A stretch of 64,000 nucleotides of DNA from Schmidtea nova. Taxonomy: Eukaryota. Location: contig CM097882.1 of assembly GCA_044892505.1 (NCBI GenBank), forward strand, positions 265,918,001-265,982,000, in the 5' to 3' direction. The position numbers were made by a program, and so were the translations under genes. Position 1 is the stretch's first letter. Each line of letters begins with the position of its first letter. Shown here piece after piece: positions 15,574 through 59,619 of the stretch. The notes below the pieces were generated by a model that had not been told where the DNA came from, made no database searches, and was given only the letters and a program-made list of their open reading frames with translations.

Positions 15574-16072
15574 CCGTAATACTCGTGTATAAACCGATCC
15601 GTATATAAGCCGAAGTGAGTTTTTATAGTCAATTTTTTGTCCAAAATCAAGTACCCGTATATAAGCCGAGGTAAAAAAAAATAGCTAAAATCTGACGAAT
15701 TATTTAAATAATCACAAAATCTTGTTTTTGACATGTGCACAATTTGAGAAATTCACAATTGAGCAACATGTTAGACAAAAAATTGTTTTTTGGGAAAATT
15801 TTTATTTCAAAGTATATGTAAATAATTCAACAATAATAATTTAATGCACATTTTAATAATTACATTTTGAAATACCGAGTGTTTGCACCAAAGTTTTTTG
15901 CAAACAATAAATACTAGTATAAAATAAATATTATAATTTTAATTTTATGATTTAAATTAATTTTTTGGCTGGCAAAAAATATTGGTCTTTGTTACCCGTG
16001 TATAAGCCGAATGGAAAAAATTAGCTTAAAAAATTGCCCAAAATTTGTCGGCTTATACACGAGTATATACGG
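15574..16072. mobile_element. pogo/Tigger-type (Tc1/mariner) MITE
   Basis: TA TSD; TIRs CCGTAATACTCGTGTATAAACCGA / TCGGCTTATACACGAGTATATACGG; internal repeats CCCGTATATAAGCCGA. Confidence 0.9.
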
Positions 16073-17526
16073 TACTTTTTCTAGATACAAACAACTTTTT
16101 ATTAATTATTTTAAAAATAAATACTTTAATAAAATTTATTAATTTTTTATTCAGAAATAATAATAATTTTAAAATAATTTGTGTTACTCTTAAATGAAAA
16201 AATTAACAAATATTGTAAAAATAGACCTGCATAACCAACCTAACCTATTTTGACTTCTGTTTTCTCCATATATTAAAAATTCTCCATATATTAAATGCGT
16301 AAATAATTTAAATTAAAAGTAAATTTATAAATTAAAAATAAAGTTACATTTTTCCAATTTAGTTTGAAAATAATTTATAAATATCTAAATAAAAAGAAGA
16401 TTTATTATTAAAAATTAAAAATAATTCTTACTTACAAATTTGAATAATCCTAAAATTTAAATATTTAATTTAAAATAATATAACAAAGACTTACTTGATT
16501 AATTAAAAAATTTTATTTTTAACAACACACTTGTTTTTAAATTTCATAAAACTAAATTAGACCGATAAATTAAGGTAAACTATAATTTTTAATATAACTT
16601 TGAAAATTTTATTTATTTTATAATTTGCAATCTAACTTATATTAAGATTTTATATTAGAGTTTGTGATAAATTTTATTTACACTTTCAAATTAGTTGAAT
16701 TATCAAGTGAAAAATCGGAGTTTTTCGTTTAACTTTTAATAAACCTTGTTCTTGAATGACTCAATAATATCAATTAAACATCTCGGAGTTTGTAAATCTT
16801 GCGTTCAAATTGCCATACTTATGTGTTTTTATCAAACATTAGGATTTTGGATCCCTTGGATCAAAAATGATAGACTAATGACGTCATCTTATTACATGGA
16901 CTTGGATTGGTCAAAGATGATATCAGCTTTTTAAAATTTTTAAAAAAATATTCTTTGTTTTTCAATTCCTATTTCTACCAACGAAAAAAATAAAATATAA
17001 TTTTTTTTGATTATATAAAACCAATTTGCATTGTCATTTTGATTTTGGGTTTTCTCGATATTGGTTCTTAGCTTGCGCTTAGTGTCTGATATTTTTAATA
17101 GAGAGTTATTGTTATTTTGTATTATATACATAAGATTTTGTTAGTAATTACAAATTGTCTTCTTTATTTTGAGTATTACAGCCTGTAAATATAGTCTTTA
17201 AAATTGCAATTTTGTTTAAAAAATAATAAATTAACAGTGTTAATTTACACTATTTTTCCATGCGTTCCGATTCTTTTTTTTAGAAATTAAGCCCTGATAT
17301 CGACTTATTATAGTAAAAGGTTGTTGTAGTTTTAATGGATGCTGATTGTAATTGACATGTACTGTAGTTAATATTTTATACAAAAATTATCATGCACATA
17401 TGCTTTATCAAAAATTTGGATTTGGGAACCGGGTCAATCAAAGCTGATAGGCGAATTGTGCTATCTTATTACATGGGATGCGATGGGTCAAAACTGATAG
17501 GATAATGTTGGTATCATGGGGTAGAG

Positions 17527-17600
17527 CAGGGCTCCTTAAACTTTATTCATTCACGACCCCATTTATGATGACGAGTTTTTTGGCGACCCCATATAAATAT
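17527..17600. mobile_element. Orphan hAT left end
   Basis: TAGAG|CAGGGCTCCTTAAAC followed by CGACCCC subterminal repeats; no right end seen. Confidence 0.45.
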
Positions 17601-18949
17601 AAAAGAAATATAAAATTTCTGTGATGATTTATTGATTATGTAAAAATATACATACATATGAAAAAATAAAGTTTCAGAATTTGTTTAAAAACATACAAAA
17701 ATAGAAAATTAAAAATTTCACAATGGAAATTTCAGATTGAATTTTTTTCTCCAACTCCTCAATTAAATTCTGAAATTTGCGTTAAATAAATAAAAAATTA
17801 TCGATTTTTTACTGTTTGTATTCATTTGATTTAATAATGCTTTTGTTTCTTATTAGGTAATTTTTAATTGACCGATTTGAAAATTAATTTTTTGAATATC
17901 TTTATCATTTAATTTTTGAATTTCTTCTTTATCGTTGATATTGAACGTAATATTTTCCTAAATTGATAGTTATATATTTTAAATTTTATGAATATTTTAA
18001 TTTACATCACGTTCTTTAATTTTCGATTCCAAATCAATAATTTCATCTTTTAATTTCTGTATTTCACTTTCTAACAGTCGATTCTTTTCCCACAATTCAA
18101 AATTCAACAAGCACCTAATGGGTGCTTGCTGTGTATTCAATTTGTAAATTTTTTGTGGAGACCTTTATTTTTCTGATCTTGGTTTTAAGTAGCTACTAAG
18201 AGTTCCTTAGAAACTAAAAATGCACAAAAGTTTAAAAGATTTTTTTTGTGTTGGTCCGTTTTTTTCTTATATTTACTATTTACCCCCTTGTTATTAACTA
18301 AATAATTAAAATAATTATTCCCTTTTTGTTATTGCTAGATAGCTACAAATAAAACAATTGCTTTATTCTGTTATTGACAATTTAATTGTCTGTTTTGATA
18401 TATGGACAATTTTCTATTTGATCTTTTGAGAAATAATCTATTAACTAATATTTATAGTTTTTATTTATTTAATATTTTATTTAATATTCTTATTTAGAAT
18501 TAAATACACATATACACACACATTAAATTACCAATTTCATATAAATATAGAGAATTAAATATCTATTTTTGACGAGAATAAAAATAACAAGATTAAATCA
18601 CAAAATTGTTAAATTGTTATAAAGTAGTTTTAATTACATAGTTATATATTGATAGTCACAATGTGATTGATTGGGGATTTGTTGACTTGGATTGACTAGT
18701 GATTGGGATTATATCTATACAAGATGTAGAATTACGAATGTGATAAAATCACGAAATGTCATTAATTCGATTGTATTGATTTTTTGATGTGTTTGAGAAC
18801 AGGGACTGCACATATTATGTTAGATCAATTATTATTGTGGGGATCGGAATGGGTTTCCGTGTAAATATTTATTCGGTCACTGTTAGGCCCCATTCTATAA
18901 TATTTATTTAGAACGAATGTCTGGATGGGCTTTCCTTGATCATCAAACA

Positions 18950-19400
18950 TCATCGCACACGCAAAATATAATCACAAAATTTCATCATACTAAACTGCAA
19001 TGACATAGAAAATACATCAAAAATTTTCAAAAATATACAAAATATCAAAAATACCAAAAATACATAGAAAATCATCAGACACAGACAAAATATCATCACA
19101 TATGAGATATCATCACTGAATTTCATCATATTATAGTGCAATATAGAAAATACATAAAAAATTCATAAAAAATTCACACAAAATATCATAAATACTTATA
19201 AAATCATCAAAAATACACAAAATATCAAGAATACATAGAAATTCATCACACACAAAATATCAAAAAGATACATAGAAATTTATTACACGCATACAAAATA
19301 TCATCACATACGTGAAATATCATCACAAAATGTCGTCATACTGTAGATTGATAACATAGAAAATACATAAAAATTAATCACAAAAGAATTATCCACACAA
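18950..19400. repeat. Degenerate A/C-rich minisatellite
   Basis: Recurring CATAGAAAATACAT / AAAATATCATCACA units. Confidence 0.75.
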
Positions 19401-19667
19401 AACTTGAAATATTAAGAAAGTGTATCAGTAATATATGTATACAATGTGTGTATGTTACTGGATAAAATTAAAATATTGTGTAATTGATCGAAACTCATCA
19501 TGGGAAATGTTAATATTTGTTGTTAAAATTGTAACAGTAATAAATATGTGTCTAATAAGCTTAGGTAGATAAAAAAAATCACAAAAGAGGTTGTGCTAGA
19601 AAGGTTCTGCTACTGAATAAAATTGTAAAAATAATAAGTGAAAATGAATCTTTCAAACATCAACGTA

Positions 19668-19782
19668 GGTTCTGTTTTATCTTTCATTTCGGAATGGGTT
19701 TCACGATATGGCATTCCAAGACAAATTATTAGCGACAGAGGAGCGCAATTCGAATCACAGCTCTTTACCTTTTTATCGGAAA
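19668..19782 (+). mobile_element. pol: Gypsy integrase core, 5' piece (continues at 22194)
   Basis: SFISEWVSRYGIPRQIISDRGAQFES contains the second catalytic D (SDRG) of the rve domain. Confidence 0.9.
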
Positions 19783-19962
19783 GCAGTGCTTCGTTCCATG
19801 AGTGTTTAATGGACATCGCAACCACACCAAAAATCAGAATACCTTGGTGTGATTTCCGGTTGCTGGGTATGAGTAATGATTATATTTTGGATATAATTTC
19901 TTCAATCGAATGTCAACAATTTCCATTGTCATGTCATCAGACAAATCCGACATAATCTCACA

Positions 19963-20130
19963 CCAATCCATCAAAGAGTGTTTTGGAGTCTTTATTATTA
20001 TGTCGATGTATCTGTTGTTTCATTGTATATTTTATGCACCATAATAGCTCTCGTTAGTAATGTTTGGATATATATTTAACTGTATGTGTTTATTTGTGTC
20101 CGTTTGAATTAATAATTGCTAATTTTGATT
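19963..20130 (+). pseudogene. Captured C-terminal fragment of a hydrophobic (membrane?) protein
   Basis: Open frame PIHQRVFWSLYYYVDVSVVSLYILCTIIALVSNVWIYLTVCVYLCPFELIIANFD*; no recognisable family. Confidence 0.3.
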
Positions 20131-20444
20131 AAATAAACTAATATGTTTGTTGATAATAACATGATATACTATGATTAGAGATGTTATAATCATTTAATGC
20201 CTTGTCTTATTTATATGTAATGTTGTGTAAATTATCTATGTAAAAATTTTGCAATACTTAATATTTTGTCATTTTTATAAATAAAAAAAACGTTTGTTTA
20301 TAAAAGGTTAGCGGATACCGCAGAATAAATTTAAAAGATATGAGTTATCGAGTTTTTGATAAATAAATTAAAAAATATATTTATTCAATTCAAAAGTACC
20401 TTTGACAACTTTAATTCAAAATTATAGTTAATAAATTATAAATT

Positions 20445-22145
20445 ATGGATTCTATGGTGTGTGTTCATGATAGATATTATGAATGCTTTCTAAAAACAGC
20501 TGATTATAAACTATTGAGGATATGCTTCAAATGTTTATCGACTATTGTGAAAAACAATCAGCAATTCAGTAGATTGACTAGAATGAAATATCTACAAGAA
20601 TCATTTGATTTGATATCCAACAGTTTGGATATAAGTTCTTCAATCGAATGTGAACAATTATGTGAGATTATGTCGGATTTGTCAGATGACATGACAATGG
20701 AAATTGTTGACAATTACAATGAATTATGCTGTAAATTAATAGTACTGATGTTAGAGCGGGTTGATGAGAAATTGGCAATGAATTGTTTGTGCAAATATCT
20801 AGACCATAATCAGGTTGATACTAGCAACGACAGCAAATACCTAATGATTATCAAGTCACTTTGCATTCATCCACATTCGCTTTTGATGGCATTTGCCCAC
20901 GGCAATAAAGGCAAATTTTTTCAAGATCTTGCAATGATGCTGGGTATGAGTAATGATTATATCAAATGCGTTGTTTGCTACATCTTGGATGTGCTGATTG
21001 ACACGGACCCGGAACTGGTCTCCTGCCTGAAGATGGAAGACATCCTGTCTACTGGTTGATATCATTATCAACCGCGATATCATTGCCAGTCACCACCTGT
21101 GCACCAATGCGACAATTTTAATGATAATTTTACTACGAAGCAGTGCTTCATTCCATGGATGTTTAATGGACATCGTGCAAACTTCCTTCGTGATACGAAA
21201 ATTGATTCTGTCATATGATAAAGAAATTGTTTACGCGAAATACGGAATAAAAATTCCGGACTTACTACTGTCTTCCGAATCCAATGGCGATATAGTTGCT
21301 CATTATTTCACGCAGTCATCAAACGTTACAGAGTACTTATTCGATCTCCTCATTACTGGTAAAAGTTTAATACCGCGCGTTATTAAATGTCTGAAGGCAT
21401 TTGTCAATTGTAAAATATTCTGTCAAACAAATATTTGCACATATGGTTTGACAAATGTCCTACGGTGTTGCCAGAACTATCTAGACGTTCAACATGTAAA
21501 AACACAAGAATTAAAAATCGCCGTTACTGATATTAAAAAAATAACATTAAATATATGGTTTTATGCAAATTATGGAATTATGAATGGACCAGAATCAGAC
21601 AATTATATCAACGCAATCCGATTTATTATACAAGCATCTTCTAATAAGAAAGCCTTCAGTGGAACACTCCCTTATGAGATCCTTCTTGGGGGATTACCCG
21701 ATGATTTCAAGCGACCTTTGGTTTGTCCTGGAATTCATCTTACATTTCTATTTGGCATAACTGAGTGTATGGTAATAATTTTCCATAAATTGAATACAAC
21801 TTATAAATATCCCAAGACACCCAAATTTACCGCATTAGGAGTAATAACCGATAACATTAAAGTGACGAGAAACTATAATATCGATAAAATCACTTACTAC
21901 GTACGTTTCTTGGAGCCAAATAGATATAATGTTCCATGCCTTTTAAAAATAATTATTTCCGAATATTGTCCGGTGATTCAAATTCAAAGTGAAAGTTCAA
22001 TTCACAGTTTCAAGTCCCCATACACAAATACAGTTGCCAAGCAACACAAACTTCGGCCACCGGAACTCTACGAAGTAGTATTGAATTTATTTGTAGAATT
22101 ATTTAAAATTAGTTTCGGGGGAACAAAAATAAAATTGATGAATCG
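20445..22145 (+). pseudogene. Intronless about 570-aa helical-repeat (ARM/HEAT-like) protein gene with one frameshift near 21030-21057, truncated by fusion to integrase
   Basis: ORF 20445-21059 and the frame of 21121-22239 (open upstream as VDIIINRDIIASHHLCTNATILM) overlap. Leu/Ile/Cys-rich amphipathic helical pattern; family not identified. Confidence 0.6.
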
Positions 22146-22193
22146 GCAACCACACCAAAAATCAGAATACCTTGGTGTGATTTCCGGTTCATC

Positions 22194-23200
22194 AAACTTG
22201 GCATCAAACGACTGCGTTCGACTGCATATCATTTGCTGACGAACGGCCTCATCGAGAGATTTCACCGGACACTCAAGCAATCGCTACGTATACTTTTTCT
22301 AAACTATCGCTGGACAAAAGCTTTGCCTTTTGTGTTATTGGGTTGGAGAAACACACCATCCAAGACAACCGAATCGTCCCCAGCTCAATTACTCTTCGGT
22401 TCCCGACGAGCTCATCGACTTCGGGGAGCAACCAACGATCTAAGAACTTATTACCGCCAGACGTCATTTCCTTGAAATTGATGGAAATCCAATCTTTTCG
22501 TCAGCAAACACCGAAAAACCTTTTTATACCGAAATCTCTATCTTCTGCTAAACACGTATGGATTCGTGCTATCGCTGATTTTGCACTAAAGCCTAGATAT
22601 ACTGGACCATTTCGACTATTAGGTATAGTCGGGAACTTTGCAACAGTCGACATTAACGGTTCATCCGAAACAATCTCTCTCACACTTATTAAACCGACAT
22701 TCGGACTTTCGAAATTTGTCCCTACTTTAACTACTTTAACAAACAGTTCAGCACAGACCAATAAAAAATCTGTCAATTCGAGATCTCCACCCATTCTTCC
22801 AGACGTGGATTTAACTATTCCTTCACCGATCGTGCTTACTGAAAATACTTGTTCGCACGAAGCAGATATATCTTCTACACATATAACCAATTGGCCTTCT
22901 AGCTCTGATGGCAAGAACACCACCGGTAGCCCGGAAACAATCGGTTCACCGGCTTACAACGAAACTCCTAGACCACTTTCAATTTTGAAAGAATCTCCCA
23001 TGGCTCATTCTAAGACTGCTTCTACTACAAAGCATCGCGTCACAATCAATCCATGGGTTCGCGAACGCCGTATAGGAGATAATCCTAACGCTCCAACTAG
23101 ACTGCATCGAATACTGTGAATATAATCTTTTCGATCTTTCCTTTTACCTTTTGTTTCTCTTGTCGCCGCACTTGCGTTTTCTTTACCACATGTTGTTCGG
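22194..23200 (+). mobile_element. pol: Gypsy integrase 3' piece and long C-terminal tail (frameshifted)
   Basis: KLGIKRLRSTAYHLLTNGLIERFHRTLKQSLR...ALPFVLLGWRNTPS; PRYTGPF (GPY/F motif); tail ...RRIGDNPNAPTRL resembles 32365-32400. Confidence 0.93.
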
Positions 23201-24199
23201 TTCGTATCAGTGACTACGAAGAACACAGATAAGCTAATTCGATACTAAATAACTTTTAATTGATTACCGGACTCCAAACGATAATCCGCTTATTTGCATA
23301 TAAATAAAATATGTGTTTTGTTGCGTGTAAATAAGAAAACAAGGTTTTGTAAAATTAGTTTTATTAATACAATACAATGTACAAAAAAGGTGTTTTGATA
23401 ATAGTGCAATGGCTGCTATGTCTAAAGGTAGATAATTGGTTGTTCAAACCGTCCTCAGATTTAAATAAACGAAAGCTGGACCTAAATGGCTCACAGCTCC
23501 GACTAAGAGATTGGACAAGAAGATGAGGGATTCCCGGTAGTTTGCGCAATAGTAATAACCCAGAATTGGTTATTACTTTTTTTCCTAATGAATTTCCCGT
23601 CTGATATTTTATTAGCTTATTAGATTGTTCTGAAGGAACAAAATAGTAAATAATACTATTGTTCCGTGATCGCACAAAATATAATATATATAATAAAATT
23701 AAAATTTACCAAATAGCTAAATAACTCCAAAGATTTGTAACTCAATTTAAAATTTGTTTATTACTGTCTCACAAAATTTGTTACTCTAAATTAACTTCTT
23801 AAAATTTTTCAACTAAAATAGTTTACTACTGTTTTTCAACTGATTACACTCAGTTTAAATATCAATGCTTGCTATGCGTAGGTCTAGACGACCAAACGCT
23901 ATTTCTTCGTGTAGGTCAAATTTGACCTTTAAAATCTACCAATTTAAAATTAAAGTAATTTATTATTACTATTTTAACTAGATTTATTATTATTATTATT
24001 ACTATAATTATTATATATCTATTCTTAGTAATTATTTATTATTATATTTATTTTCTATCTATTTCAAGTAATTATAAATTGCTATTTATATTTATATTTA
24101 TTTATAATATTTTTTATCAACAATGCATACAAAAACCCGAGATCCTTTGATCTCGAACCCTAACAATGTTACTTCTCCGCAGCTTTCGTTGGGGGCTAA

Positions 24200-24494
24200 T
24201 GTGGTGATATAATTAATACATAAATAAATAAAATATTTATATTAAAAATAAATTCAACAATACCAAACGTTTTTTTTTAAAATACAACCAAATTAAAACA
24301 AGCGTTAATACTTTCAAATTACATTATCTTTCAATGCACATAGTGAAATAGTTTTTTAATTAAACATTCTTAAAACCTATTTAAAAATATTACATTTAAA
24401 ATAGTTTAAATAAAAATGAATATAATAAAGTATATATTTAATTTATATTTAATATAAATATTATATTTATTTATATATTAATTATATCACCACA
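24200..24494. repeat. 295-bp TG...CA element with about 45-bp imperfect terminal inverted repeats
   Basis: TGTGGTGATATAATTAAT / ATTAATTATATCACCACA; no TSD seen. Confidence 0.6.
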
Positions 24495-26788
24495 GAAAGT
24501 ATGTGTGTGTAATAAGAATTGAGAGATAAAAACCATCACAAAAGACATTTTGATACTAAAGGTTCGGATAGAAAGGTTCTTCTAGCATGAAAAAAATTAT
24601 TGGAAATATATATAATTACACAACGCGGAGGTATATAAAACGAGCAATAAAACAAAAATATCAAAGTCTTAAAGATCATCACACCAATAAAATAACAAAC
24701 ACACAATATCATCACACTATAGAATTATATGGGCGGTCTGTTCCACTACCCACACGTGTGTTCTCATATTTTTAATTAAATTAAAAATAAAATTCATGTC
24801 TTTGTATTTTAAATTAAAACAAAAAATTCGTATAATTAAAACAAAAAAATTTGGTTAATTTAAACAAAATTTTACTTTATATAAACAAACATATATGTCA
24901 TTATATATGTCATTACATAATCACCGGATTTGTTAAACATTTAATTATATGATTAATATGTAATTATGTAATTAAATGTAATTGTGTGAATATATAATTA
25001 TGTAATTATATAATTAAAAAAGAGGAATAAATGAAGATCATATAAAGGTCAAAATGGGTTATTTAGTTATCTAGACATATGTAGTAGACATGTAGGAGAA
25101 GCCATATAAAATTTTTTTCAACCTGATAACAATTTAATTTATTTATAAAATATTTTATTTCTCATAGATGAAAAGCTTTCAATAAAATAAGATACTTTTT
25201 AAAACAAATTTTATATAATTATGAAGAACTCTGTAACTCGTTAAATATTTTTCTATATATTCTATTTTGATCATGGACACAACTTTTTGATTATATTTCA
25301 AAGATTATAAAAATATAATGTGCTGGTTCTACAAGGAACTTTATTTTATATTTATAAAAATTGAGGTGCGTGTTATACACAGTAAATTAGGGTAAATATA
25401 ATCTATAATTATTAATATAATTCGTGTGGTTGCGTGTAATATTTATGTTTCAATAGATTAAAAACAACTTTCTTTTTCCAAAATAAAACGATTTATTACA
25501 GTCAAATTTATAATATGTTTTTACAATTGAAAGAGCAATACAAAAACGGGATTTTGTAATCCTTGCTGTTTGTTGCAGCCTGCTTTAAATCGTTGGCTCC
25601 TATGTAGGACAAAGATCGCTCAAATAATTTAACAGAAGATCGATAAGTTAGTTGAAAGGATTTTGGCGGACCCAAAGTAAAGAACCCTTCTTTGTATTCG
25701 CTTAATTTTAATAAAAGGGATAAAATTTATCCTTCATTATGCGCCCTTTAATTCAATTTAATTTATAAAATAATAATAATTACTCTGTTTCTGGAATTTT
25801 TCGTTTTCAATTTTTTCTTTCACTAAGAATTTGGCCTGATATTAATATGATTTTCCCCAATCAGAAATCCAGGTGTATTCTAATTGTTTCTCTCATGGGC
25901 TTGAATTTTAGACTCTCTACGCTAAATTCAAGATTTCCTTTTCACTACTTCGATTATCGATTCCATAATTTTGAGCACTCAAACAGCTGCTTTCCTACTT
26001 TATTACTACTAATCCAATTTATTATTTTTCCAAAAGTACTTTTCGCTGCTAATTTTTATTATCGCTCGCACTAAAAATTGATGTCCGTTGTTTTATGTTT
26101 TACTAATATTTATATCATTTTTAAACTATAATTTTTATTTTTGGTAATTCCAAAATTACTATATATAGGGTTATCATAATTTCTCCAAGATAGATCAGTT
26201 CTATTTTTAGTAATTAATCAAAGTTTATTTTTATTTTAAGTAATTATCTATTTCTATTATTGTAATTATTCTATTTTTAGTGATTTTTAATTCTTTGATG
26301 TTTAAGACAAAGGACCAAGTAATTTTGGATTAATTTATGGTTCTTAGTGAATTGCATGATTCGAAATAAATTAAATATTACCCAAAATTTTATTTTTAAT
26401 ATATGGGCTTATACGTGGGTCATCTATTTTGGACTTTTTTCAATTATGCGATTCACATAGAACCCTAAATTAATCCAAAATTACTCGGCCTTTACGCGAA
26501 TATATACGGTTATTCAAAAAGCAATATATTATGTACGATTGACAAATTAAATAAGTAAGCTAGTGAAAACATTTTAGACAATAGAAAAATCAAAATTATT
26601 AATTTAAATTCTTTATTAATTATGAAAAATATTGTTTATCCTTAATTATAAAAATATCGGTTAACCGGTTAACTGGTTAATTAATTATTTTTTAAATCAA
26701 AATTTCCTTTTCTTTTCGATAAGAAATAATCTGCAAGCCTGACAGTATTTTCTTTCAGTGGCTAAAATGATATTTATTTGTGAGACAT

Positions 26789-28031
26789 TTATTTATGATA
26801 AAAGTTTATTCCAATTATCGGGATATATGAGTTTTTGATTAGTTCTTCCGAGATGATCTTTGAAAATATTTTAAAGAAAGATGTTTTTGCTTCATTTTCA
26901 AGCTTGTTGTGGAGGATCGACAGGTAGGATAGGTTGAGAGCTAGCTCATACTTAGGAATTGAAGAGAGATCCACGAATGAAATTAAACCAATGACAGAGT
27001 CTGCGCTAAACTCTCTTTTTGACGAAGCATATCTCACACCACTTTCGATCATAATTCTGAGAGCAGCATGACATGATCTTAGAATCCACATTAATAGTCT
27101 GCTGCGGATCATTGAATCACACTTTGCAAGGAACTTCATAGGATCCACTTCCCACGAACCTAGAGTTGTCATCTCCATGTACGCGTTTTTGATGTTCGAC
27201 ACATTCCGAGAAGTGAGCTCCTTATCTTCAAGATAGACTAGAAGGGAAATCCAAAAATGATTCCAAGTTTGTTTGCTCAATGATAGTGTCACTGTACTCT
27301 TCTTCAAATAGAAAGATCCAGTATCCAATCAATAGAGTCATTTTTAAATGGCAGTGCAAAAGATGTGAACATCTATGTAAAACTAGAGAGTAAAATCTAG
27401 TGACGAATATGCCCGAATTTTTAGATATATTTTTTGAGAATAGTGGTTCTATTTTAAAGTTGATGTCTGAAGATAACAACAGGACGCTAAAAAAGATCGG
27501 ACCTTTAAAGCTAGTCTGCTTTAACAATAACAGTGCGTTGGTTTTGGGTATTCTTTTTAAAACGAATTGGTCATTTCTACATAATTGCAATCTGCTAATG
27601 TTAACTTCCTCTACTAGAATGTTGAGGAACCACAATGAATGAAATAGGTTAGTGTGGAAAACAGTATCTAAGAAGCTATAGTTATCTTTCATTTTAAAAC
27701 CCGAAAAATCTCTTTTCTAAGTACAATCAGCTCATCTTCTTTAATATCCACCTTTGATAATAACACATCTTTAAAATCAAAGCTGCTCTCTACATCCACA
27801 GAAGGTGCATCGGATCTATATGTCTTTTTACTATTGCTTTGACGCTCTATAATCACCTTGTTATTTTTCCATGCTTTCCCACAAACTCCCATCTTTGCAA
27901 GCTCCTATCTATGTTCTTCATTTATGTTCAACTTCACTCTATTCTTGTCCATCTTTGTAACTTTCTTCTTTGGAGAATAATCTTCGTCATTTGATCTCAG
28001 TTCAAGTTCGAACTCCTCATTTGTTCTACAA
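26789..28031 (-). pseudogene. L: Endogenous bunyavirus (phenuivirus-like) L protein, downstream segment (PA-C-like region)
   Basis: LAKMGVCGK; EEVNISRLQLCRNDQFVLKRIPKTNALLLLKQTSFKGPIFFS; SLLVYLEDK...AYMEM...PMKFLAK...RSRLLMW; YLSILHNKLE. Same order as phlebovirus L motifs; one stop and two frameshifts. Confidence 0.85.
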
Positions 28032-30698
28032 CAGGGATGGCGAACCTTTTTTTGACTGCGTGCCAATAAATATTATTTTTATAAAATGAAAATACATGCG
28101 TGCCAATACAAATTATTTTTATTAAATGAAAATACATGCTTTTAAAAATTATATATAGATTCATTTCTATAATATGCTGACATATTTTTTAATGGGATTT
28201 TTGTTGCTGAATATTCCTCGATAATGCATCAATATCCGGATCATAGTTTGACAATTTTAATGAAATACAAGCCTCCCCACATTCATCGGTAAGTCTGTTT
28301 CGTACATCAGATTTTATATTATTCATAATCGAAAATAGACTTTCACAGCTATACGTTGATGAAAATATTGTTAGAATAGCTAAAGACAATTTCTTCATCG
28401 CATTAAATGTTTCTGGGAGCGAACACCATGTCTTCAACAACATATTATTCATGTTTTCGTATTCTTCTTCATTTAATCTTTTTTTTTCATTATTTTCTAT
28501 TTCTTGCCTTAACTCTATAAATTTCAGCTTCCAAATAGAACTTGATTGAAACTCTGCCAACTGCATTTCTAAATTCTCCAACTGCATTTCTAAATTCTCC
28601 AACTGTAACCAGTCTAATTGATCCATTTTAGCAGTTTCCAAATCAAACTTGTCTGGATATTTAATAAAGTTAATTAATGGTTGAAATTTTTTGAAATCTT
28701 GAAATCTCTTAGCAAAATTGTCTTGTATGTCACTTATAACTTGGCTATAAAAATTTATATTAATTTCATAGACTCCATGAATAGAAAATTTTTGAAGGTG
28801 ATCTTTCAACAAAGGAAAATACTTAAAATTATTGTTGTCAATATCGCGTTTAAATATTACTAATTTGGACTCAAAACCTTCAATAATATCGAACATTACA
28901 TCAATTGATTTTCCGGGACCTTGCAATTTAATATTTAATTCATTTCAATCGTTGGAAATATCCGTTAAAAACATTAATTTGGTGATCCAGTTATTATCAA
29001 AAAGTTCAGGAAATTCGGTTTTTTTATCATTAAGAAACATGATAATTTCATCAAAACATTCTACAAAACGTTGTAACACAAATCCTCTACTAAGCCAGCG
29101 TACGTGATTATACATTAACAATCCATGATAATTTGAACCTACCTCTTGTAGAAGCAACTGAAATTGCCGCTTATTCAAAGCTCGAGCTGCTATAAAATTT
29201 ATTATTTTGGAAACAATACTTGAAATATCATCAAATGCTGCCAATCCAGACTTCGCACATAGAACTTCTTGATGAATTATACAATGAAAATTAATAATTG
29301 GATGCCCAACGTGTTCTTGAAAAAGAGATACAAAACCAGCTTGCCGTCCTATCATTGAGGGAGCTCCATCAGTTGTAATTGACACTATTGTTGATGTATC
29401 TATCTCAGCTATTTGAAACGTTTTTATAACTGCATCACTAATATCTTTCCCAGTCGTTTTTGCTGATAAGGAAACTAGTGAAAGCAATTCCTCAACTATT
29501 TTTTTCTCCTTTAGCATAACGAGCAATTATGGACAAGCGAGCTGAAGATGTTACGTCGTTACTTTCATCAAGACATATAGAAAATAGCTTTGCTGAACGT
29601 ATATCATTTATTTTTTTAATATTAATATTTTTATGCATTTTTAATATCCTGTCTTTAACAGTATTTCGACTTATACTTAATTCTTCAATGCGCTTAAGTA
29701 TCTGCTCTTTATTTTGAAAATCTTCAAATAAATGTGGTGCACATTTAATGAAAGCTTCTTTAATATAATCTCCATCGCTAAATGGTTTGCTATGAGTAGC
29801 AATAGTCTTGGAAACCTCAAAACTAGCAGCAACTAAATAATTTGTATGTTTCAAAAATGTAATAAATGAGTTTGATTGTAAAAATCTATTTTTAACTTCA
29901 CGTGCAATATATTCTTTTTGTTCTAAATCACTTTTAGATAAAAGAAATGAATGAGTAGTTTCATAATGTCGTTTTACTGAGGATGTTCTGCACACTACTG
30001 TATTTCCACACAACGCACACAGGGCATTGTTATTGCTTTTCATCATTCCATATTTATCAGTCCACCAATCTTGAAATGGTCTTTTAGAGCTGGCCTCTGT
30101 TTTCCTTTTCTTATTTTCTGACATTCTAAAGTTGAAACATATTATTTATTTATCATTAAAATTGTTAATGAATTACCTTTTGAAATCAATTATAATTGTC
30201 TTCTAAAAATATAAATAGATTTTTTTTATTAGCAAAAAATAATACTAAAATAAGAAAACACAATTTTCAATCGCACTTACAAAGTTTTTAACTGAACTGA
30301 ATTAGAATTAGTGAATTTCAATTTTGGCGAGAATGCAAATATTCATATATATATGTATGTATATATTTGAAAATCCAAAGCATACTATGTTCATTTTAAC
30401 ATTTTTTTATATTTAAAATTACATGTTCATACTTGTACATACCTATACCTACATACGCAAATAATATAATTATATTTTAACGTTATGAATAAAGGCGCCA
30501 GAAATCTGGAAGTTTGTTTTTAAATATCAAAATTTATGCATTAAATTTGAATTGAGTTCACAATTTTTTCAATATCAAAAATGCATTTGGATTAGTCAGT
30601 ACATTACATATGTATGAAAATGAAAAATATTATACGTGCCAGCGAAAATTTATCTGCGTGCCACTTTGGGCACGCGTGCCATAGGTTCGCCATCCCTG
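28032..30698 (-). mobile_element. Complete hAT DNA transposon (Buster group, SPIN/GTF2IRD2-like transposase), 2,667 bp
   Basis: Perfect 16-bp TIRs CAGGGATGGCGAACCT; perfect 8-bp TSD TTCTACAA (28024-28031, 30699-30706). Transposase 30124-28189 with BED-like CxxC..H, LDESND, ITTDGA, FHCIIHQE, RW, STYSCESLFS; one A-run frameshift near 29500 and one in-frame stop at 28945. Confidence 0.98.
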
Positions 30699-31645
30699 TT
30701 CTACAATTTGATATGGCCAAATTCCAAATTTCATCCATAGTCGTTTCTGTGTTTAAAATCTCATTGCTCACAATTTTTAACAAAACTTCTGAACTATACA
30801 AATTATTGATATTTACAAACACTAAAGGTAATTTAATAACTGGCTTTAAGATTTTTGAACAGCTGGCCTTGGAGTTGATCTTTTCACAATAGTCCATTCA
30901 CAAGTCATCGTTTTTTTGCAAGTTGTAGTTTGGATTCTTATTGATGATTTTGCTGACTCTCACTCTATCTTTTAGAGTTTCGTCAAAAGAACTCTCGAAG
31001 TCTCCAAGAGTGTCCATAATGTTCCAAGAAAGAGATTCATTGAGCGTAGTATTAAGCTAGTCCTCTGTGATGATGAGAGGATCTTCGTCAAAATCTGATA
31101 GCACTTGTAATTTGTCAATTTCTGCCAGAATTTCTATCTTTAGCGTATCTTCCTGTCTCTGAAAGTTGAAAATAGAATTCTCCGTACAATACTTTTCAAA
31201 TCTTAATCCTAAGTACATGCCGACTCCCACTCTTCTTAATGTAGATTTTTCGAAATCAAAAAGTGCTCTCAATATTCCCGAGCCAACTACAATTGCACCT
31301 ACAGTGATTTTCTACCCTTTCGATCTTTTCTTCAGAGCCCGCAAGTACTTGGCTATTGCTAAGCTTTCTCTAGTAATTAAGCTTGATTCCTTGGCTGTAT
31401 TTACTGTCTTTAGCTCGATCACCATATAACCATCATTACCTTTAAATATAAAGTCTGGCGTCAGATTTTGATATCAATCGGCAACATCATCCACAATGTT
31501 CACAGATTGATCTGTTTTTGAACTACCAAATAAAATGTCAGCGATTAAATTATGTTGTAATCTTGCTATTTCTTTTTTGCTTAGAACTAACCTATTGCAT
31601 CTCACTAATTTTTCGCTTGCGGTTATTTGATTCATCAGTTTAATG
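30699..31645 (-). pseudogene. L: Endogenous bunyavirus (phenuivirus-like) L protein, upstream segment with cap-snatching endonuclease
   Basis: Single frame with 4 stops: LQHNL (H 31554)...KTDQ...NLTPDF (PD 31458)...VIELKT (E 31416, K 31410)...AIAKYLRALKKRSKG*KITVGAIVVG...KPVIKLP; rejoins 28023 in frame once the hAT is removed. Confidence 0.88.
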
Positions 31646-32291
31646 AATCGACATTGCAAATAATTTTAGGGGTAATTGTCGATTCATTAAAATTAAATTT
31701 TGACTCGTAAAAAGTAATAAATAAATTGAATAATACTTTGCGGTATTCCAGTGATTGAAGTTGCTGTTGCGACTGTATAAAACGAACTGCTTCGTAATGG
31801 AAGCCCAAAGAGTTTGTTTAAACATACAAAACAATTTAAACAAATACATTTTATAATTAATACTATTAATATTAAAAATAAATAATAGTTCATAACAAAA
31901 TGTTGGATTGTTTGACGGAGACACGTAGATTGAAAAAATAAATAGATTTTTTTTACATTGAGATTATCTAATTTTCTTCAAGAATTTATTAATATGAAAA
32001 TATCATTCTTGGTCTATTTTTTCAATCTCTTGTTATTAATCGCTCTTTGATTGAATGGAACTGAAAGTGGAGGTCAATTGGACGGATTAGACAATTCATA
32101 AACAATAATGTTCGCTTTCGAAATTATTAGGAAACTTCAGCGATTTGTTGTCATGGTTATTATTGACAAATTTAGATGGGTGCTGAGTATCAGTAGACGT
32201 TGTAAAAAAATCAGTATTTTTGAAAAGTATTTTCGCGACAAGAATATTAGGAACAGATGCGAGAGAAGGAATGATTAGGAATGGAAATGAT
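31646..32291 (-). repeat. 646-bp direct repeat, downstream copy (putative non-canonical 3' LTR)
   Basis: Near-identical to 36653-37298 (about 2 differences seen); begins right after the PPT GGGGGG(TA). Confidence 0.9.
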
Positions 32292-33136
32292 TACCCCCCA
32301 TCCAGAAACGCTGAGCGTTTTTAAAAAAAAATTTAGAAATGTTAATCTTGATGACAACCCCAAGTTACAAATCGTTGGTTCTAGATAAGCGAGTTGGTAA
32401 GTTTGGGTTTTCGCCGATTCTTTTAGTTCGGTCCCAGTCTGCTATACGAACTTTCTTGATTTGTTGTACTTTGGGTATCTTATTCAATGGTTTTAGAATG
32501 GGGTTCAGTGTAGATTTTGGAATAGCAGTAGGTTGAATATTTATGTCTTTCGACTGTTCCAATATAGTTGCAGGGATAAACCATGTGTTATCTGGTTGAG
32601 ATGATTGTGTTGGCCTCTGAATTGGAATTTGGTTTTGGTTAGATCTTTATTGTAATGTACTGGGTGATGGGCTTTCAATTTGTAACGATGTGACTGATTA
32701 ATTAGTTATGAGGGGTGGAGTGCTTTCGTTTTTGATTGAAAGCAATTTTGGTGGTAATAAAAATTGATGAGGTAAACGAACGACGGTCGGGTTATCCTTC
32801 TGGAAATTATGAATTTGTGTGGTGAATGGTAGTATGGGGTGTTTCAGCCAAAGTTTGCCTGAACAAACTTTGGCTGTTTTTGCTGCATGTGTATTTTTCA
32901 TTTTAAAGCGTCTGTGTGCGCTACCACCAATTGATCAGCGTCTGTGTGCGCATTTTTTAATTGGAGTTATTTTGGATAGGTAAATTTGTAATTTGGAGTT
33001 TAATTGATTTTTAGATTTAATTTTAAGAATTTTTAGATTAGGTTTATTATTGTTTAAATACTCCAATGGAATTTAATTTAGTTTTGATTTGGATTTTAGT
33101 TTCGATTTGGGTGAATTTAGGAATGGAGATCTAGAT
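32292..33136 (-). mobile_element. pol: Gypsy integrase low-complexity C-terminal tail, 3' UTR and polypurine tract
   Basis: ...KKVRIADWDRTKRIGENPNLPTRL resembles the 23119 tail; CGCTCAGCGTTTCTGGATGGGGGGTA PPT at 32292-32317. Confidence 0.75.
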
Positions 33137-33820
33137 TTGTTTCTTTTGAATATTCTTATGAATTCTGGCAAAAAGGTGTATCGAAAATGGAATTTTCATT
33201 GTTTAACTATCCTTTCGCATTCGATGGTATTACGAAAACTCATTTGATGAAAATTGAGGCTAAATGCTTAATGTCAGAAGATTTACCATGCTTCGTAGCA
33301 CAAAGCAGTTTTCATATTACTGTACGAAGAGATAATTTGCTAGGTGATACCGTTAGCCAGTTGCAGCGTGCTTCTCAATGTCACCTTAAAAGGCCATTTA
33401 GGGTTAATTTCATGGGTGAAGATGCTTTAGATGAAAGCGGGGTAATGAAGGAATTGTTCTTACTTGTTGTGCCTCAAGTTTTAAATCCCGATTATGGTCT
33501 CTTTGAAATGTATCCTGAATCAAGACTCTGCTGGTTTAACAAAATGATATTTGATGATAATCTACCGCAGTTTAATGCAATCGGTAGATTGTTTGGTCTG
33601 GCAATTTACAATAATGTTATGATTGATCTTCACTCTCCTCTTGTAATGTTCAAAACATTGTTCAATGAAAAGGCTAATCTAGATGATTTAATCGAGCTCA
33701 ATCCAACCTTGGGGAAATCATTACAGACGTTACTTTATTTCGGTCAAGATGATTTTGAGAATATATTCATGCTTAATTTTGTTATTCCCCCCGGTTCATT
33801 TGACAATAAAATTGAAAGGA
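33137..33820 (+). pseudogene. Captured HECT E3 ubiquitin ligase fragment (small HERC3/4-like N-lobe), antisense to the host Gypsy
   Basis: FNYPFAFD, VRRDNLLGDT, LKRPFRVNFMGEDALDESGVMKELF, NPDYGLF..YPESRLCWF, IGRLFGLAIYN, DDLIELNPTLGKSLQTLL. No C-lobe or catalytic Cys; no introns. Confidence 0.93.
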
Positions 33821-36652
33821 TGTTGCGTTCTGTTGGAAACATGGGGTCTGGAGGATTTGGCGGTGTAAAGTCTTGTGTCTCAGAATGAAATGTAATATTT
33901 GTAGGACTGAGGTCTTCTTCCACATAACCAAAAGCTGGCTTGAGACGGGCTAGATTTATAATTGAATCTATTCCATTAATGGAAACTTTTGCAGTGCTGT
34001 TATCGAATATTTGGAGAAGAGGACACGGTCCTTCATAGCGTGGTCTTAGGCCTATATCAGCAATTGAACGGATCCATACATGTGTTGCGCGATCGAAAGA
34101 TCTGGGAATATATGGCTTGTAAGTGTTAGCCATTGAAAAGTTTGGGTTTGAGTCCAAAGATAGGAAATGATTTCTTGCATCAGCTAGGTTTTCTAAAGTT
34201 GGTTCAGAGTTTAGCTCGACGAGTTCGTTTGGTAAAATGACGTCAGTACCAAACATGAGTTGTGATGGAGAAGAACCAGTTGTTTTCGATGGCGTATTGC
34301 GCCATCCTAGTAAAACAAAAGGTAAGGCCTTTGCCCAGTTCTTTGAAGTTGAGAGGATTCGGAGGGATGCCTTGAGTGTGCGGTGAAACCGCTCGACAGC
34401 TCCATTTGTTTGTGGGTGGTAGGCACTAGTCCTGAGGTGTTTAATTCCTAGTTGTGCAGAAAGTTGTTTAAAAAGATTGGATTCGAACTGGGGTCCTTGA
34501 TCGGTAATGAAATGTAGAGGAACACCAAATATCGAGATCCAATGTTCTATGATCGTCGATGCTACAATCTAGGCAGAAATAGATTTTAAAGGATCTGCGA
34601 CTGGGAAACGAGTTTTTCTGTCCAGCATGGTTAGTATATATGTGTAACCGTTGTCTGGAGGAAATGGTCCAACAAGATCAACATGCACCACTTCAAAACG
34701 GTTTCCAGTTGGAAAGCTATGTAAAGGTGGGCGAGTATGACTGTGGATCTTGTGTTGTTGACATCCTAAGCAAGATTCACACCAGTCTTTTGCGTCCTGT
34801 CTCATACTTGGCCAAATGACACGAGAACGGAGTAAGTTATATGTTGCAGAAATACCGGGGTGATGAAGGTTATGGGTGTGATTGAAAGCTTCGCGTCTTA
34901 GCTTTTCTTGCAAAATTGGGCGGATATTTCCAGATAAGGCGTTGTCGTAATAGATGCCTTTATCAAAAAGCGTTGTATTTTGGAAGAATGACAGGTCTCT
35001 TGCGGAAGGTGGTAAAGACCTGAGAACATCATCAGTGAAGATCGGCTCAGTAGTGATAGTTGCAACAAGATTTCGCGATAGATAATCTGCTACAATATTC
35101 TGGCGACCTGGAAGAGAGTGATAGTGAACGCAAATTCTGATAAGTAACTAATTTGACGTCCCTGTCTTGGTGAAGGAGTCTTCATTTCCATCATGTGAAC
35201 TAGAGGTTTATGGTCAGTTTGTATAGAAAAAGATCTGCCTTCGAGGAGATAACGGAAATGGCGAACTGATTCATATATTGCTAACAATTCGCGGTCGAAC
35301 TTGGAATAGCGTTGTTCCTGTGCAGTTAATTTACGTGAAAAAAATTCAATTTTCTCCTGTCAACCTGTGTTGTTTTGTTCGAGAACTCCAGCAATGCCAA
35401 TGTTGGACGCGTCGGTAGTTAAAAATAGAGGTAGGTTGCTCTTTATGTAGGACAAAGATTGTGCAGTAGAGATTGTGTCCTTAACGGATTGAAAAGCTCT
35501 TTCAAGTTCGTCATTTTACGGTAGGAGAGAGTGTTTTGGACCGCTACAGAGAGCAGAAAGAGGTGCGGTGACCTCGGATATTCTTGGGATGAATCGGTGA
35601 CAGAAATTAACAGTTCCTAAGAAGCTGCGCATTTGGGAAACTGTATTTGGTCGTGAAAATTTGCGGATTGTATCTAGGCGTTCTGGAAGTGGTCTTACTC
35701 CGGAAGTCGATACAAGACGCCCAAGAAATCTAATTACCGATTGAAAGAAAGAACATTTGTCCAAGTTAATTTGCAAATTGTTATTGTGTAGTAACTTGAA
35801 CACTTCTTTGATATGTTCCAAATGTTCCGTTGCATATTTGGAGCTGATGAGGATGTCGTCGATGTATGCCACCATATATTTCTTGTCCCTTAAAATATTA
35901 TCGATGTGTCGCTGGAAGGTTTGAGCTGGGTTCCGTAGACCGAATGGCATGTATTTGTATTCGAACAAGTCAAAAGGGGTAATGAAGGCGGTCTTTGGGA
36001 CGTCTTCTGGTGATACCAGGATTTGGCGGTAAGCCTTTTTTAGGTCTAGGGTAGAGAAGATTGTAGCTTCAAGTAATCTCGAAAGAACGTCTGATATCAG
36101 CGGCATGGGACAAGAGTCATGTACAGTGACTTTGTTGGGGCGTCTGTAGTCACATCAGGCGCGAATAGATCCGTCTTTTTTTGTAACCACGTAGATGGGT
36201 GATGCCCACGGGGAATGCGATCGGTGGATAATACCGGCTGCGAGTAGCTTATTGAATTCTTCCTTGATAAGTGTGAGCTTCTCGGGCGCGAGTGGTCGCA
36301 TGCGTTCTCTAAGAGGCATACCGTTATTGGTGACTATGACGTGTAGAAAAGAGGGAGTTTGTTGGTGATTGTTTGATCTAATTTCGACGTTTGGAAAAGT
36401 CTTTAGTAGTTGTTGTTTACAGTAAGGTGTGGCGAGTAGGACATTGAGAGCGTCGCTACAGAGATGGTCAAGAACTTGAGCTCTAGGTGAGTGCTGTGAA
36501 AGGATTAATTTGCGTTCTCTACAATCAGTCAGTAAACCTTCAGCATCGAGAAAATCGGCACCTAAGAGTGGATGAATGACCTCGGCGACTTGGAATGTCC
36601 ATGAAAAAGTTTTAGACAGGCCAGGAATTCGGAATACTAAATTCTTGGTTCC
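33821..36652 (-). mobile_element. pol: Ty3/Gypsy pol (partial protease, RT, RNase H, integrase), several frameshifts; gag and protease N-terminus absent
   Basis: PLLGADFL; SPWASP; LDLKKAYRQ; YKYMPFGLRNPAQTFQR; YIDD; TDASNIG; RELLAIY; TDHKPL; HNLHHPG..CESC; VHVDLVGP; TDQGPQFES; TNGAVERFHR; PRYEGP. Confidence 0.97.
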
Positions 36653-37298
36653 AATCGACATTGCAAATAATTTTAGGGGTAATTGTCGATTCATTAAAAT
36701 TAAATTTTGACTCGTAAAAAGTAATAAATAAATTGAATAATACTTTGCGGTATTCCAGTGATTGAAGTTGCTGTTGCGACTGTATAAAACGAACTGCTTC
36801 GTAATGGAAGCCCAAAGAGTTTGTTTAAACATACAAAACAATTTAAACAAATACATTTTATAATTAATACTTTTAATAATAAAAATAAATAATAGTTCAT
36901 AACAAAATGTTGGATTGTTTGACGGAGACACGTAGATTGAAAAAATAAATAGATTTTTTTTACATTGAGATTATCTAATTTTCTTCAAGAATTTATTAAT
37001 ATGAAAATATCATTCTTGGTCTATTTTTTCAATCTCTTGTTATTAATCGCTCTTTGATTGAATGGAACTGAAAGTGGAGGTCAATTGGACGGATTAGACA
37101 ATTCATAAACAATAATGTTCGCTTTCGAAATTATTAGGAAACTTCAGCGATTTGTTGTCATGGTTATTATTGACAAATTTAGATGGGTGCTGAGTATCAG
37201 TAGACGTTGTAAAAAAATCAGTATTTTTGAAAAGTATTTTCGCGACAAGAATATTAGGAACAGATGCGAGAGAAGGAATGATTAGGAATGGAAATGAT
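36653..37298 (-). repeat. 646-bp direct repeat, upstream copy (putative non-canonical 5' LTR)
   Basis: Identical boundaries to 31646-32291; followed on the minus strand by GG of protease codons ATT GGA ACC. Confidence 0.9.
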
Positions 37299-37556
37299 GT
37301 GACAACAGAACATTACAATCATTTTATATAAAAGTCGATTCGCATTTTATTTCTGCTCGTCATTCATATTATTAACTTCCTGATTTACTGCACCAGTTTA
37401 ATTGACATTTTCAATCATATTTCCATTTTGCCTAATTATCAGCATAAGGCCTTCGTGAAAGGTAATTATTCGTAATAATTTCATTTAATCAATAAATCCT
37501 TTAATCAGTGTAATATCAATTTATTTATATAAATGACCAAATTTGAATATTTTGAA

Positions 37557-38318: not shown

Positions 38319-38895
38319 CTAATATCCTAAGACAAAGGGTTCGAAACTTTTATCATCATTTGCAAGAACCTGAACTGGTACACCTAAATATCGGGTAATC
38401 AAACAATCAGTCCATTCGTCTACTGTAATAGAAAATGCCCGGTTTTCTTTTTTATGTCTTTGAAAAATAGAACGATGTTCATTTCTTTTATCTTCATAAT
38501 ATCCAATAATATTAGATGTAATGGTCGTCAAACTTCTTGACATTCTATAACCTTTAGATTTTACGTAGCCTTTTATGGCTTTAGAATTACTCATTGCAGT
38601 AATTGACATACCATCCACTGCCGCTACTTTTAAAAATATTTCTGCTAAAGATTCCTTCTTCATAAAATTCAATATTGTGCTTGGTTTATCAATTTTTTTA
38701 CACTTGATTTTCAATCGGATTGTCGTTTACGGTGTTATTTATAAATATGCTATGAGATTACAAATTATTAATCAATGCAGATGTTGTGGATCCTTTACGT
38801 CCAATAATTCAACCACATTTATTACACATGACAACTGGTGACTGGTTTTCTTTCCGCAAAAAATAAGTCCATACATCTGATCATTTAGACATGGC
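38319..38895 (-). mobile_element. hAT transposase 5' fragment with BED zinc finger
   Basis: SDVWTYF...VMCNKCG...GSTTSALINNL; KESLAEIFLKVAAVDG; FSITVDEWTD (first catalytic D). Confidence 0.85.
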
Positions 38896-59578: not shown

Positions 59579-59619
59579 TGTAAAAAAATGTAAAGTGTGA
59601 AATATTTCTCTGTATTTAT

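What the first reader, a model, noticed from the sequence alone, without database searches (positions are those of the whole stretch)
19668..37298. Candidate system: one Gypsy family repeatedly capturing host and viral sequence in one locus
Within 18 kb, two related integrases (both with ALPFVLLGWRNTPSKTT and RIGxNPNxPTRL) are associated with three foreign cargos: a helical-repeat gene with a scrambled junction, an antisense HECT fragment and a bunyavirus L gene. In mosquitoes, LTR retrotransposon RT makes chimeric viral DNA that ends up in piRNA clusters. This window may be an equivalent capture-and-archive locus in a different lineage, with a family prone to template switching. The shared mechanism and any immune function are inference.
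Basis: inference. Interest (0 to 1): 0.78.

Follow-up and report, generated by a model that had tools for sequence, protein, structure and literature searches.

The report
Retrotransposon ends carrying host gene pieces
The supposed virus-archiving locus is a pile of separate transposon insertions, but it reveals two retrotransposon families whose end repeats carry stacked pieces of host messenger RNAs, read in frame with their capsid gene and spread in hundreds of copies.

Summary
The parts exist, but they were not captured by one family at one locus.

The two integrases belong to different families (73% nt over 153 nt). The HECT piece is the cargo of a solo LTR of an unrelated BEL/Pao element, inserted with a perfect 5-bp TSD. 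The bunyaviral L fossil (5' third only) is joined to a third repeat; the Gypsy element sits inside that repeat, 39 nt away. None of 20 other L-fossil stretches has that family beside it. The helical gene is cargo inside a Gypsy LTR.

The real finding is genome-wide. This CsRn1-like Gypsy family (500 exact LTR ends) has LTRs of 0.43-2.26 kb whose middle is a stack of sense host-gene fragments (CNOT1, PRP38, TMEM131, FMN reductase, ankyrin, ARM-like). One cargo has lost an intron precisely. The cargo frame is depleted of stops and runs through the primer-binding site into gag. The BEL/Pao family shows the same layout (HECT, Hsp70, ubiquitin).

Template switching during strong-stop synthesis, filtered for an open frame, is the likely cause (inferred). 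Expression and small RNAs are untested.

The parts
19640..19776 (+). 5' piece of an older Gypsy integrase (family B), split by the family-A LTR
   Evidence: 44% aa to family-A integrase 781-812; continues at 22197
19781..19962 (+). Scrambled junction: five 25-52 nt pieces templated from inside the LTR (last one inverted), replacing the first 15 nt of the LTR; no TSD
   Evidence: same junction in the twin at G000:C1:264.18 Mb
19958..22196 (+). Family-A LTR variant (about 2.25 kb) with ARM-like cargo stacked on older cargo blocks; one frameshift here, a single ~600-aa ORF to the LTR end in intact copies
   Evidence: ends shared with LTR pairs of pol-bearing copies; 72 candidates, 37 near-full-length at 90% or more among 40 scored; ORFs and TSDs
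22135..22195 (+). Hairpin at the LTR 3' end, part of the minimal 73-nt block shared by the LTR variants that have this end type
   Evidence: z = -7.0; block map
22197..23116 (+). 3' piece of the family-B integrase with tail ending RIGDNPNAPTRL
26792..28031 (-). Bunyavirus-like L fossil, distal part, with frame changes
   Evidence: 40-48% aa to residues 511-795 of P0003, named Tricladiphe virus protein
28032..30698 (-). hAT transposon (Spin-doc zinc finger, hAT dimerisation domain) inserted into the fossil; terminal inverted repeats and 8-bp TSD TTCTACAA
30699..31599 (-). Bunyavirus-like L fossil, endonuclease region, four in-frame stops, 5'-truncated
   Evidence: L_protein_N weak hit
31600..31638 (-). 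39 nt of repeat X between the family-A LTR and the L fossil
   Evidence: 82-90% match to the empty site in L104, L107, L110
31639..32291 (-). 3' LTR of the family-A element (CNOT1-type LTR with most of the cargo deleted), after the PPT GGATGGGGGG
   Evidence: 99.7% (2 mismatches in 646) to the 5' LTR; CNOT1-bearing full versions elsewhere
32292..32839 (-). Family-A integrase tail (RIGENPNLPTRL) and PPT
32840..33841 (+). Solo LTR of a BEL/Pao family (C), TG...CA, TSD TGGGG, carrying a sense HECT fragment
   Evidence: full elements with PPT, PBS TGGTAGCAGAGC, DUF1759 gag and pol; 1174 candidates
33842..36652 (-). Family-A pol (end of protease, RT, RNase H, integrase), broken; gag and PBS deleted
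   Evidence: Pfam; 92-96% to 39 other copies, 512 candidates
36653..37317 (-). 5' LTR of the family-A element, starting TGTAATG, fused to the protease by a deletion with short microhomology
37318..37441 (-). Repeat X, upstream part (target of the family-A insertion); copies elsewhere lie upstream of a Monjiviricetes-type fusion glycoprotein ORF

Best explanation
The 18 kb is an ordinary nest built in steps. An L-segment cDNA joined a fragment of repeat X; a hAT inserted in the fossil; a family-A Gypsy element inserted in X; a BEL/Pao solo LTR inserted in its integrase tail; separately, a family-A LTR entered an older integrase through a template-jumping repair event. What the nest exposes is a cargo-LTR system. 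SHOWN: family-A LTRs have a 5' block of about 340-480 nt (three variants seen), a short 3' hairpin block, and between them a stack of sense host-gene pieces. Newer pieces lie 5', older shared blocks 3'. One cargo has lost an intron precisely, and the stack keeps one open frame that crosses the PBS into gag. Family C has the same layout. INFERRED: transcription starts upstream of the cargo, so the cargo lies in R/U5. During minus-strand strong-stop synthesis RT jumps to a co-packaged mRNA, copies it towards its 5' end and returns near the U3 border. Both LTRs then inherit the piece. Products survive only if the frame from the captured start codon into gag stays open.
For: LTR status: TGTAATG...CATYAAA ends, PBS, PPT; within-element pairs 97-99.8%; perfect 5-bp TSD in 8 of 10 correctly delimited solo LTRs, 4 of 6 with both ends called, and 5-6 bp in 5 of 5 full elements with both ends called. 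Cargo: CNOT1_1st, PRP38, Ig_TMEM131_2, FMN_red and Ank_2 above Pfam cut-off, all sense. Nested 3' blocks of 73, 124, ~185, ~395 and ~840 nt. A 48-nt GT..AG intron present in L151 is missing in the FMN-reductase cargo, which also holds about 75 nt of 5' untranslated sequence. Stops: 154 in the gag frame against 477-807 in each other frame over 9154 codons; the gag frame is best in 20 of 23 long LTRs. Frame to gag: open in 2 of 9 elements, same frame with stops in 2, one shift in 4, deleted in 1. Stops are 0 of 94 shared against 15 of 267 singleton non-synonymous changes, p = 0.014. Family C: 1359 codons with one stop from HECT through Hsp70 and ubiquitin into DUF1759 gag.
Against: No start site, transcript or protein evidence was obtained. 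Intron loss is shown for one cargo only, against a truncated intron-bearing copy rather than the intact parent. The 23 LTRs share ancestry and include pairs, so they are not independent; they come from best-hit lists. Only 2 of 9 elements are fully open into gag. Cargo-free LTRs of 433-495 nt exist, so cargo is not required. The HECT cargo is an internal piece of its gene (recalled from HERC-type domain order), so capture does not always reach the mRNA 5' end. Microhomology at cargo junctions was not measured.
Confidence: 0.7

Rival explanations
1. Cargo enters LTRs at the DNA level (repair of breaks with cDNA or retrocopies, ectopic conversion between LTRs), and open frames persist because transcripts with early stops are destroyed by nonsense-mediated decay, not because of a Gag fusion.
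For: Repair-type events occur here: the scrambled junction and the twin locus, best read as a circle of window 14899-22798 recombined into a solo LTR. Cargo amino acids are weakly constrained: shared omega 0.35-0.88 in the five cargo sets where it could be computed, against 0.10 for pol; pooled shared-versus-singleton N/S p = 0.15.
Against: It does not predict a fixed 5' entry point with nested 3' blocks, a captured 5' untranslated region, or that two different LTR end types both cross the PBS in the gag frame.
Confidence: 0.2
2. Cargo proteins are selected accessory factors (for example truncated CNOT1, PRP38, HECT or Hsp70 acting against silencing or aiding assembly), like the host domains of Burro.
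For: Several cargos come from RNA-decay, splicing and ubiquitin genes; shared omega is below singleton omega in 5 of 5 computable cargo sets; some variants reach dozens of copies or more.
Against: No cargo set shows significant constraint (p 0.06-1.0); cargos are functionally unrelated, often internally deleted, and dispensable.
Confidence: 0.2
3. One reading: one family captured host and viral RNA at this locus, which acts as a piRNA archive.
For: Two family-A insertions, a cargo LTR of family C and an L fossil lie within 18 kb, while family-A LTR ends occur about once per 2.5 Mb. The X-to-L junction is sense to sense and X belongs to an env-bearing repeat, so some retroelement may have made the viral cDNA. 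Repeated insertion into one spot is compatible with a heterochromatic trap.
Against: L is not joined to family A; HECT came with family C; no enrichment of family A, of the X core or of retroelement proteins at 20 other fossil stretches; mixed strands.
Confidence: 0.08

Closest known systems
LTR-mediated retroposition in animals (Tan et al. 2016, PMC5131818; passages read)
   Same: mRNA pieces joined to LTR-element sequence, proposed template switches in the particle, multi-gene chimeras, sense bias, further rounds of copying.
   Different: There the retrocopy replaces part of the internal ORFs in a few copies. Here it sits inside both LTRs, pol stays in place, pieces stack, solo LTRs spread them in dozens to over a thousand candidate copies, and the frame runs into gag.
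BARE-2 LTR and Veju-L (review PMC13317346; passages read)
   Same: Foreign sequence brought into an LTR element by abnormal template switching; in BARE-2 into the LTR itself.
   Different: Single events involving another retrotransposon or unknown DNA, not repeated capture of many host mRNAs as one open frame.
Maize Bs1 (seen as cited; paper itself not read)
   Same: Hybrid ORF built from several host genes by an LTR element.
   Different: Described as flanked by the element, not inside the LTR; a single lineage.
Burro/GYPSM1 giant Gypsy of planarians (PMC6431247; passages read)
   Same: Host-like domains (ankyrin, ubiquitin-related) fused into the polyprotein of an LTR element.
   Different: Burro exceeds 30 kb with fixed domains after an N-terminal Gag; family A is about 6-9 kb with variable cargo upstream of Gag in the LTR.
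CsRn1 clade of Ty3/Gypsy (PMC2582038; passages read)
   Same: Gag motif CX2HX9CX3C, present twice in family A; PR-RT-RH-IN order.
   Different: PBS TGGTGTCAGAAG (read from recall as tRNA-Leu, not Trp), 5-bp instead of 4-bp TSD, long variable LTRs.
Mosquito viral-DNA / EVE-piRNA system (review PMC9962485; passages read)
   Same: Fragments of an RNA virus in a transposon-rich region; many independent fossils in the genome.
   Different: No retrotransposon-virus hybrid junction with the family in question, no enrichment next to retroelements in the sample tested, small RNAs untested.

Membership tests
LTR retrotransposon LTR (families A and C) | Paired near-identical terminal repeats with PBS, PPT and TSD | tested here: met
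   family A ends in ...CATYAAA rather than CA
CsRn1 clade | CHCC Gag motif | tested here: met
   two CX2HX9CX3C matches; DUF7041
CsRn1 clade | tRNA-Trp primer-binding site | tested here: inconclusive
   PBS is TGGTGTCAGAAG; tRNA identity recalled as Leu, not matched to a tRNA here
CsRn1 clade | RT phylogeny within the clade | not tested
   no tree built
BEL/Pao (family C) | DUF1759 Gag followed by pol with integrase; 5-6 bp TSD | tested here: met
   no RT tree
LTR-mediated retrocopy | Intron loss relative to genomic copy | tested here: met
   one of one cargo compared
LTR-mediated retrocopy | Microhomology at mRNA/element junctions | not tested
   parent genes mostly not retrieved
LTR-mediated retrocopy | Retrocopy replaces internal ORFs | tested here: not met
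   cargo is inside the LTRs; pol is in place in the 20 copies examined, which were chosen by pol match
Mosquito-type EVE archive | Hybrid junction between virus and the LTR family | tested here: not met
   39 nt of repeat X separate LTR and L; X continues on the far side
Mosquito-type EVE archive | EVEs enriched next to the family or to retroelements | tested here: not met
   0 of 20 for family A; 2 of 20 versus 5 of 20 controls with a limited protein set
Mosquito-type EVE archive | Antisense 1U piRNAs and ping-pong | not testable with these tools
   no small-RNA data laid
Bunyavirus-like L EVE | Homology to L proteins with L_protein_N and Bunya_RdRp | tested here: met
   only the 5' third is present

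The most novel reading that the evidence does not exclude
Two unrelated LTR superfamilies in this animal independently use the LTR as a renewable N-terminal cassette. They take the leader and start codon of host mRNAs and translate a host-fragment/Gag fusion. Solo LTRs then scatter promoter-plus-fragment units in hundreds to over a thousand copies. Cargo from essential genes could shield the element from piRNA silencing or feed back on those genes.
Probability: 0.3. Interest if true: 0.88.

Novelty: new variant of a known kind. Interest (0 to 1): 0.72.

Why it matters
It gives a recurrent, countable record of template switching onto host mRNAs, with a built-in order (newest piece 5'). It is a high-copy route for exon shuffling in which every solo LTR delivers a promoter and an open host-derived frame. 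It would mislead annotation: dozens of false paralogues of CNOT1, PRP38, TMEM131 or HECT genes, and repeat libraries that mask real genes. It raises a testable problem for piRNA self/non-self discrimination when a transposon's most abundant part is host mRNA. Separately, 18 bunyavirus-like L fossil loci document repeated endogenisation in what is probably a flatworm.

Tried and rejected
L N-terminus against longer proteins by word search: nothing; a profile-free HMMER search with a related fossil worked although the first ~310 query residues were out of frame. Idea that the Gypsy inserted into the L gene itself: the far flank is not viral. Idea that the 650-nt repeat is a Helitron or MITE: it has PBS, PPT and 5-bp TSDs. 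Identity and parent of the ARM-like cargo: no Pfam or homologue hit, atlas leads only, two partial hits were other cargo-bearing repeats. Parents of TMEM131 and PRP38 cargos: searches were dominated by LTR copies, and candidates were not fetched. Sequencing runs: no RNA holder listed; four runs of one study hold 0.73-0.78 of the words and 16 others 0.26-0.29, none laid, so no evidence either way. In some searches the start pattern mis-delimited ARM/FMN-type LTRs (17 of 45 rows); these and 5 cargo-free LTRs were left out of the stop count. Horizontal transfer of the hAT: best protein relatives only 52%. Earlier scan notes: nothing in three look-ups. Literature: searches showed no description of repeated host-mRNA capture inside LTRs in the listings and passages I saw. 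The original Burro paper is not held, and its supplements and Repbase entries, which I could not see, may describe these families. PMC3726574, PMC11410931 and PMC9241645 were seen as passages only.
Full report
Setting. The window is G000:C1:265918001-265982000 in a 1.25-Gb, AT-rich genome. The best relative of the viral fossils is named Tricladiphe virus, so a triclad flatworm host is likely; this is inference.

Observation. The motifs, the HECT ORF, the L-like fossil, the ARM-like ORF and the scrambled junction are all present. The two integrases are relatives, not one family: 73% nt over 153 nt, 77% aa in a 69-residue core, 30% in the tail. I call the minus-strand one family A and the plus-strand relic family B.

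Family A. Its pol has 512 candidates genome-wide. I fetched the 20 best copies (19 best plus one, skipping a near-duplicate). In 20 of 20 the integrase runs straight across the place where the window has HECT, and 18 of 20 have a recognisable 3' LTR start. The LTR starts TGTAATG, ends CATYAAA, is followed by a PBS and preceded by a PPT. One exact end pattern occurs 500 times, the reversed control 0 times; the PPT-LTR junction pattern occurs 127 times. Gag has DUF7041 and two CHCC motifs, as in the CsRn1 clade.

The L fossil was not captured by family A. Related fossils extend 65-80 codons further upstream, and the far flank of the element is not viral. That flank and the 39 nt after the 3' LTR are contiguous parts of a third repeat, X: 3 of 9 compared loci match both sides in order. 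The flanking five-mers match 4 of 5. The LTR pair differs at 2 of 646 sites, while the fossil has four stops in about 300 codons, frame changes and a hAT insertion, so the element is the later arrival. The fossil covers residues 85-795 of a 2077-aa L and lacks the RdRp core. One search gave 44 matches, which merge to 18 loci. Of 20 ten-kb stretches around fossils other than the window's, none has family-A DNA beyond one 62-nt hit. Retroelement protein hits from a limited query set occur in 2 of 20, against 5 of 20 eight-kb controls. The X core was not found at them.

HECT came with another element. 32840-33841 is TG...CA with a perfect TGGGG duplication. Elsewhere the same unit follows a PPT and precedes a PBS and a DUF1759 gag and pol, so it is the LTR of a BEL/Pao family, C, with 1174 candidates. 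HECT is sense in its own element. In one element the frame runs 1359 codons with one stop from HECT through Hsp70 and ubiquitin pieces into gag; in another it overlaps gag-pol with a frame shift.

The helical gene is LTR cargo. 19958-22196 shares both ends with family-A LTRs. 37 near-full-length copies at 90% or more were among 40 scored of 72 candidates; intact ones hold one ~600-aa ORF to the LTR end. Here it splits the family-B integrase without a TSD, and its first 15 nt are replaced by five templated pieces, which suggests repair by template jumping. A twin 1.76 Mb away is a circular permutation of window 14899-22798 with an AGGTG duplication, best read as a circle recombined into a solo LTR; it carries the same junction at 98%.

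The cargo-LTR system. Family-A LTRs range from 433 to about 2260 nt; each element's pair is 97-99.8% identical. Their middles encode CNOT1 N-terminus, PRP38, TMEM131 Ig, FMN reductase plus ankyrin, a DUF5586-like piece (below cut-off) and unassigned ORFs, all sense. Shared blocks are nested from the 3' end (73, 124, ~185, ~395, ~840 nt), so new pieces are added 5'. Two end types fold into hairpins (z -7.0 and -5.6). The FMN-reductase cargo has the upstream untranslated sequence and lacks exactly a 48-nt GT..AG intron found in a truncated genomic copy. In 23 long LTRs the frame that continues into gag has 154 stops against 477-807 in the other five, and is the best frame in 20 (22 of 45 rows left out, 17 mis-delimited and 5 cargo-free; the LTRs are not independent). 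Across the PBS the frame reaches the gag motif openly in 2 of 9 elements, with stops in 2, with one shift in 4; one is deleted. Cargo amino acids are weakly constrained compared with pol (shared omega 0.35-0.88 versus 0.10), but stops are missing among shared changes (0 of 94 versus 15 of 267, p = 0.014). The PBS-to-gag leader itself shows no amino-acid constraint (shared omega 1.37).

Mechanism. Most likely RT, while copying a long R/U5 from the tRNA primer, jumps to a co-packaged mRNA, copies towards its 5' end and returns near the U3 border; plus-strand synthesis then puts the piece in both LTRs. Selection acts on an open frame, probably because the captured start codon becomes the first one upstream of gag. 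The start site, the jump and the fusion protein are inferred, not shown. DNA-level capture with decay-based filtering, and selected accessory proteins, remain open.

Comparison. Template-switch capture by LTR elements is known, as is a single foreign insertion into an LTR (BARE-2) and host domains in Burro polyproteins. Repeated, stacked, in-frame host-mRNA capture inside LTRs in two superfamilies did not appear in searches; Repbase and subscription papers were not visible.

Verdict. The proposed capture-and-archive locus is not supported. Read-level checks of assembly, expression and small RNAs remain open.

Noticed in passing
G000:C2:5.8-19.2 Mb: 6 of 18 merged bunyavirus-like L fossil loci fall in 13.3 Mb (simulated scan P about 1e-5, window size chosen after seeing the data). 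A better candidate for an EVE-rich or piRNA region than this window.
   Followed up: partly
G000:C1:610.29-610.33 Mb (L037-L042, L066, L067): An L fossil with long open stretches is tandemly repeated seven times with a period of about 4.4 kb.
   Followed up: partly
L064, L077, L079: Some L fossils put the N-terminal region next to distant parts of L (residues 1065-1142 or 1716-1924), suggesting rearranged templates.
   Followed up: no
G000:C1:264171000-264181233 (L132-L133): Circular permutation of window 14899-22798 integrated into a solo family-A LTR: a likely record of extrachromosomal circle capture.
   Followed up: partly
L130, L131: The ARM-like fragment also occurs, fused to a kinase-like piece (recalled motif), in a repeat with other ends; possibly a third cargo-bearing family.
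   Followed up: no
L025, L027-L032: Family-C LTRs are often bordered or cut by long (AAT)n tracts containing a short inverted repeat like window 11572-11738.
   Followed up: no
L107, L109: Repeat X lies upstream of a Monjiviricetes-type fusion glycoprotein ORF, as reported for the Burro env region.
   Followed up: partly
window 12437-12760 (-); 48946-50190 (+); 59510-59875 (-); 38322-38726 (-): GIY-YIG (Penelope-like) fragment, another Gypsy pol relic, a TBP-domain ORF, and a transposase-like relic (recalled resemblance).
   Followed up: no
L050:505-2625 versus 7597-9039: The two LTRs of one element differ by a ~680-nt cargo block, showing cargo loss within a single copy.
   Followed up: no
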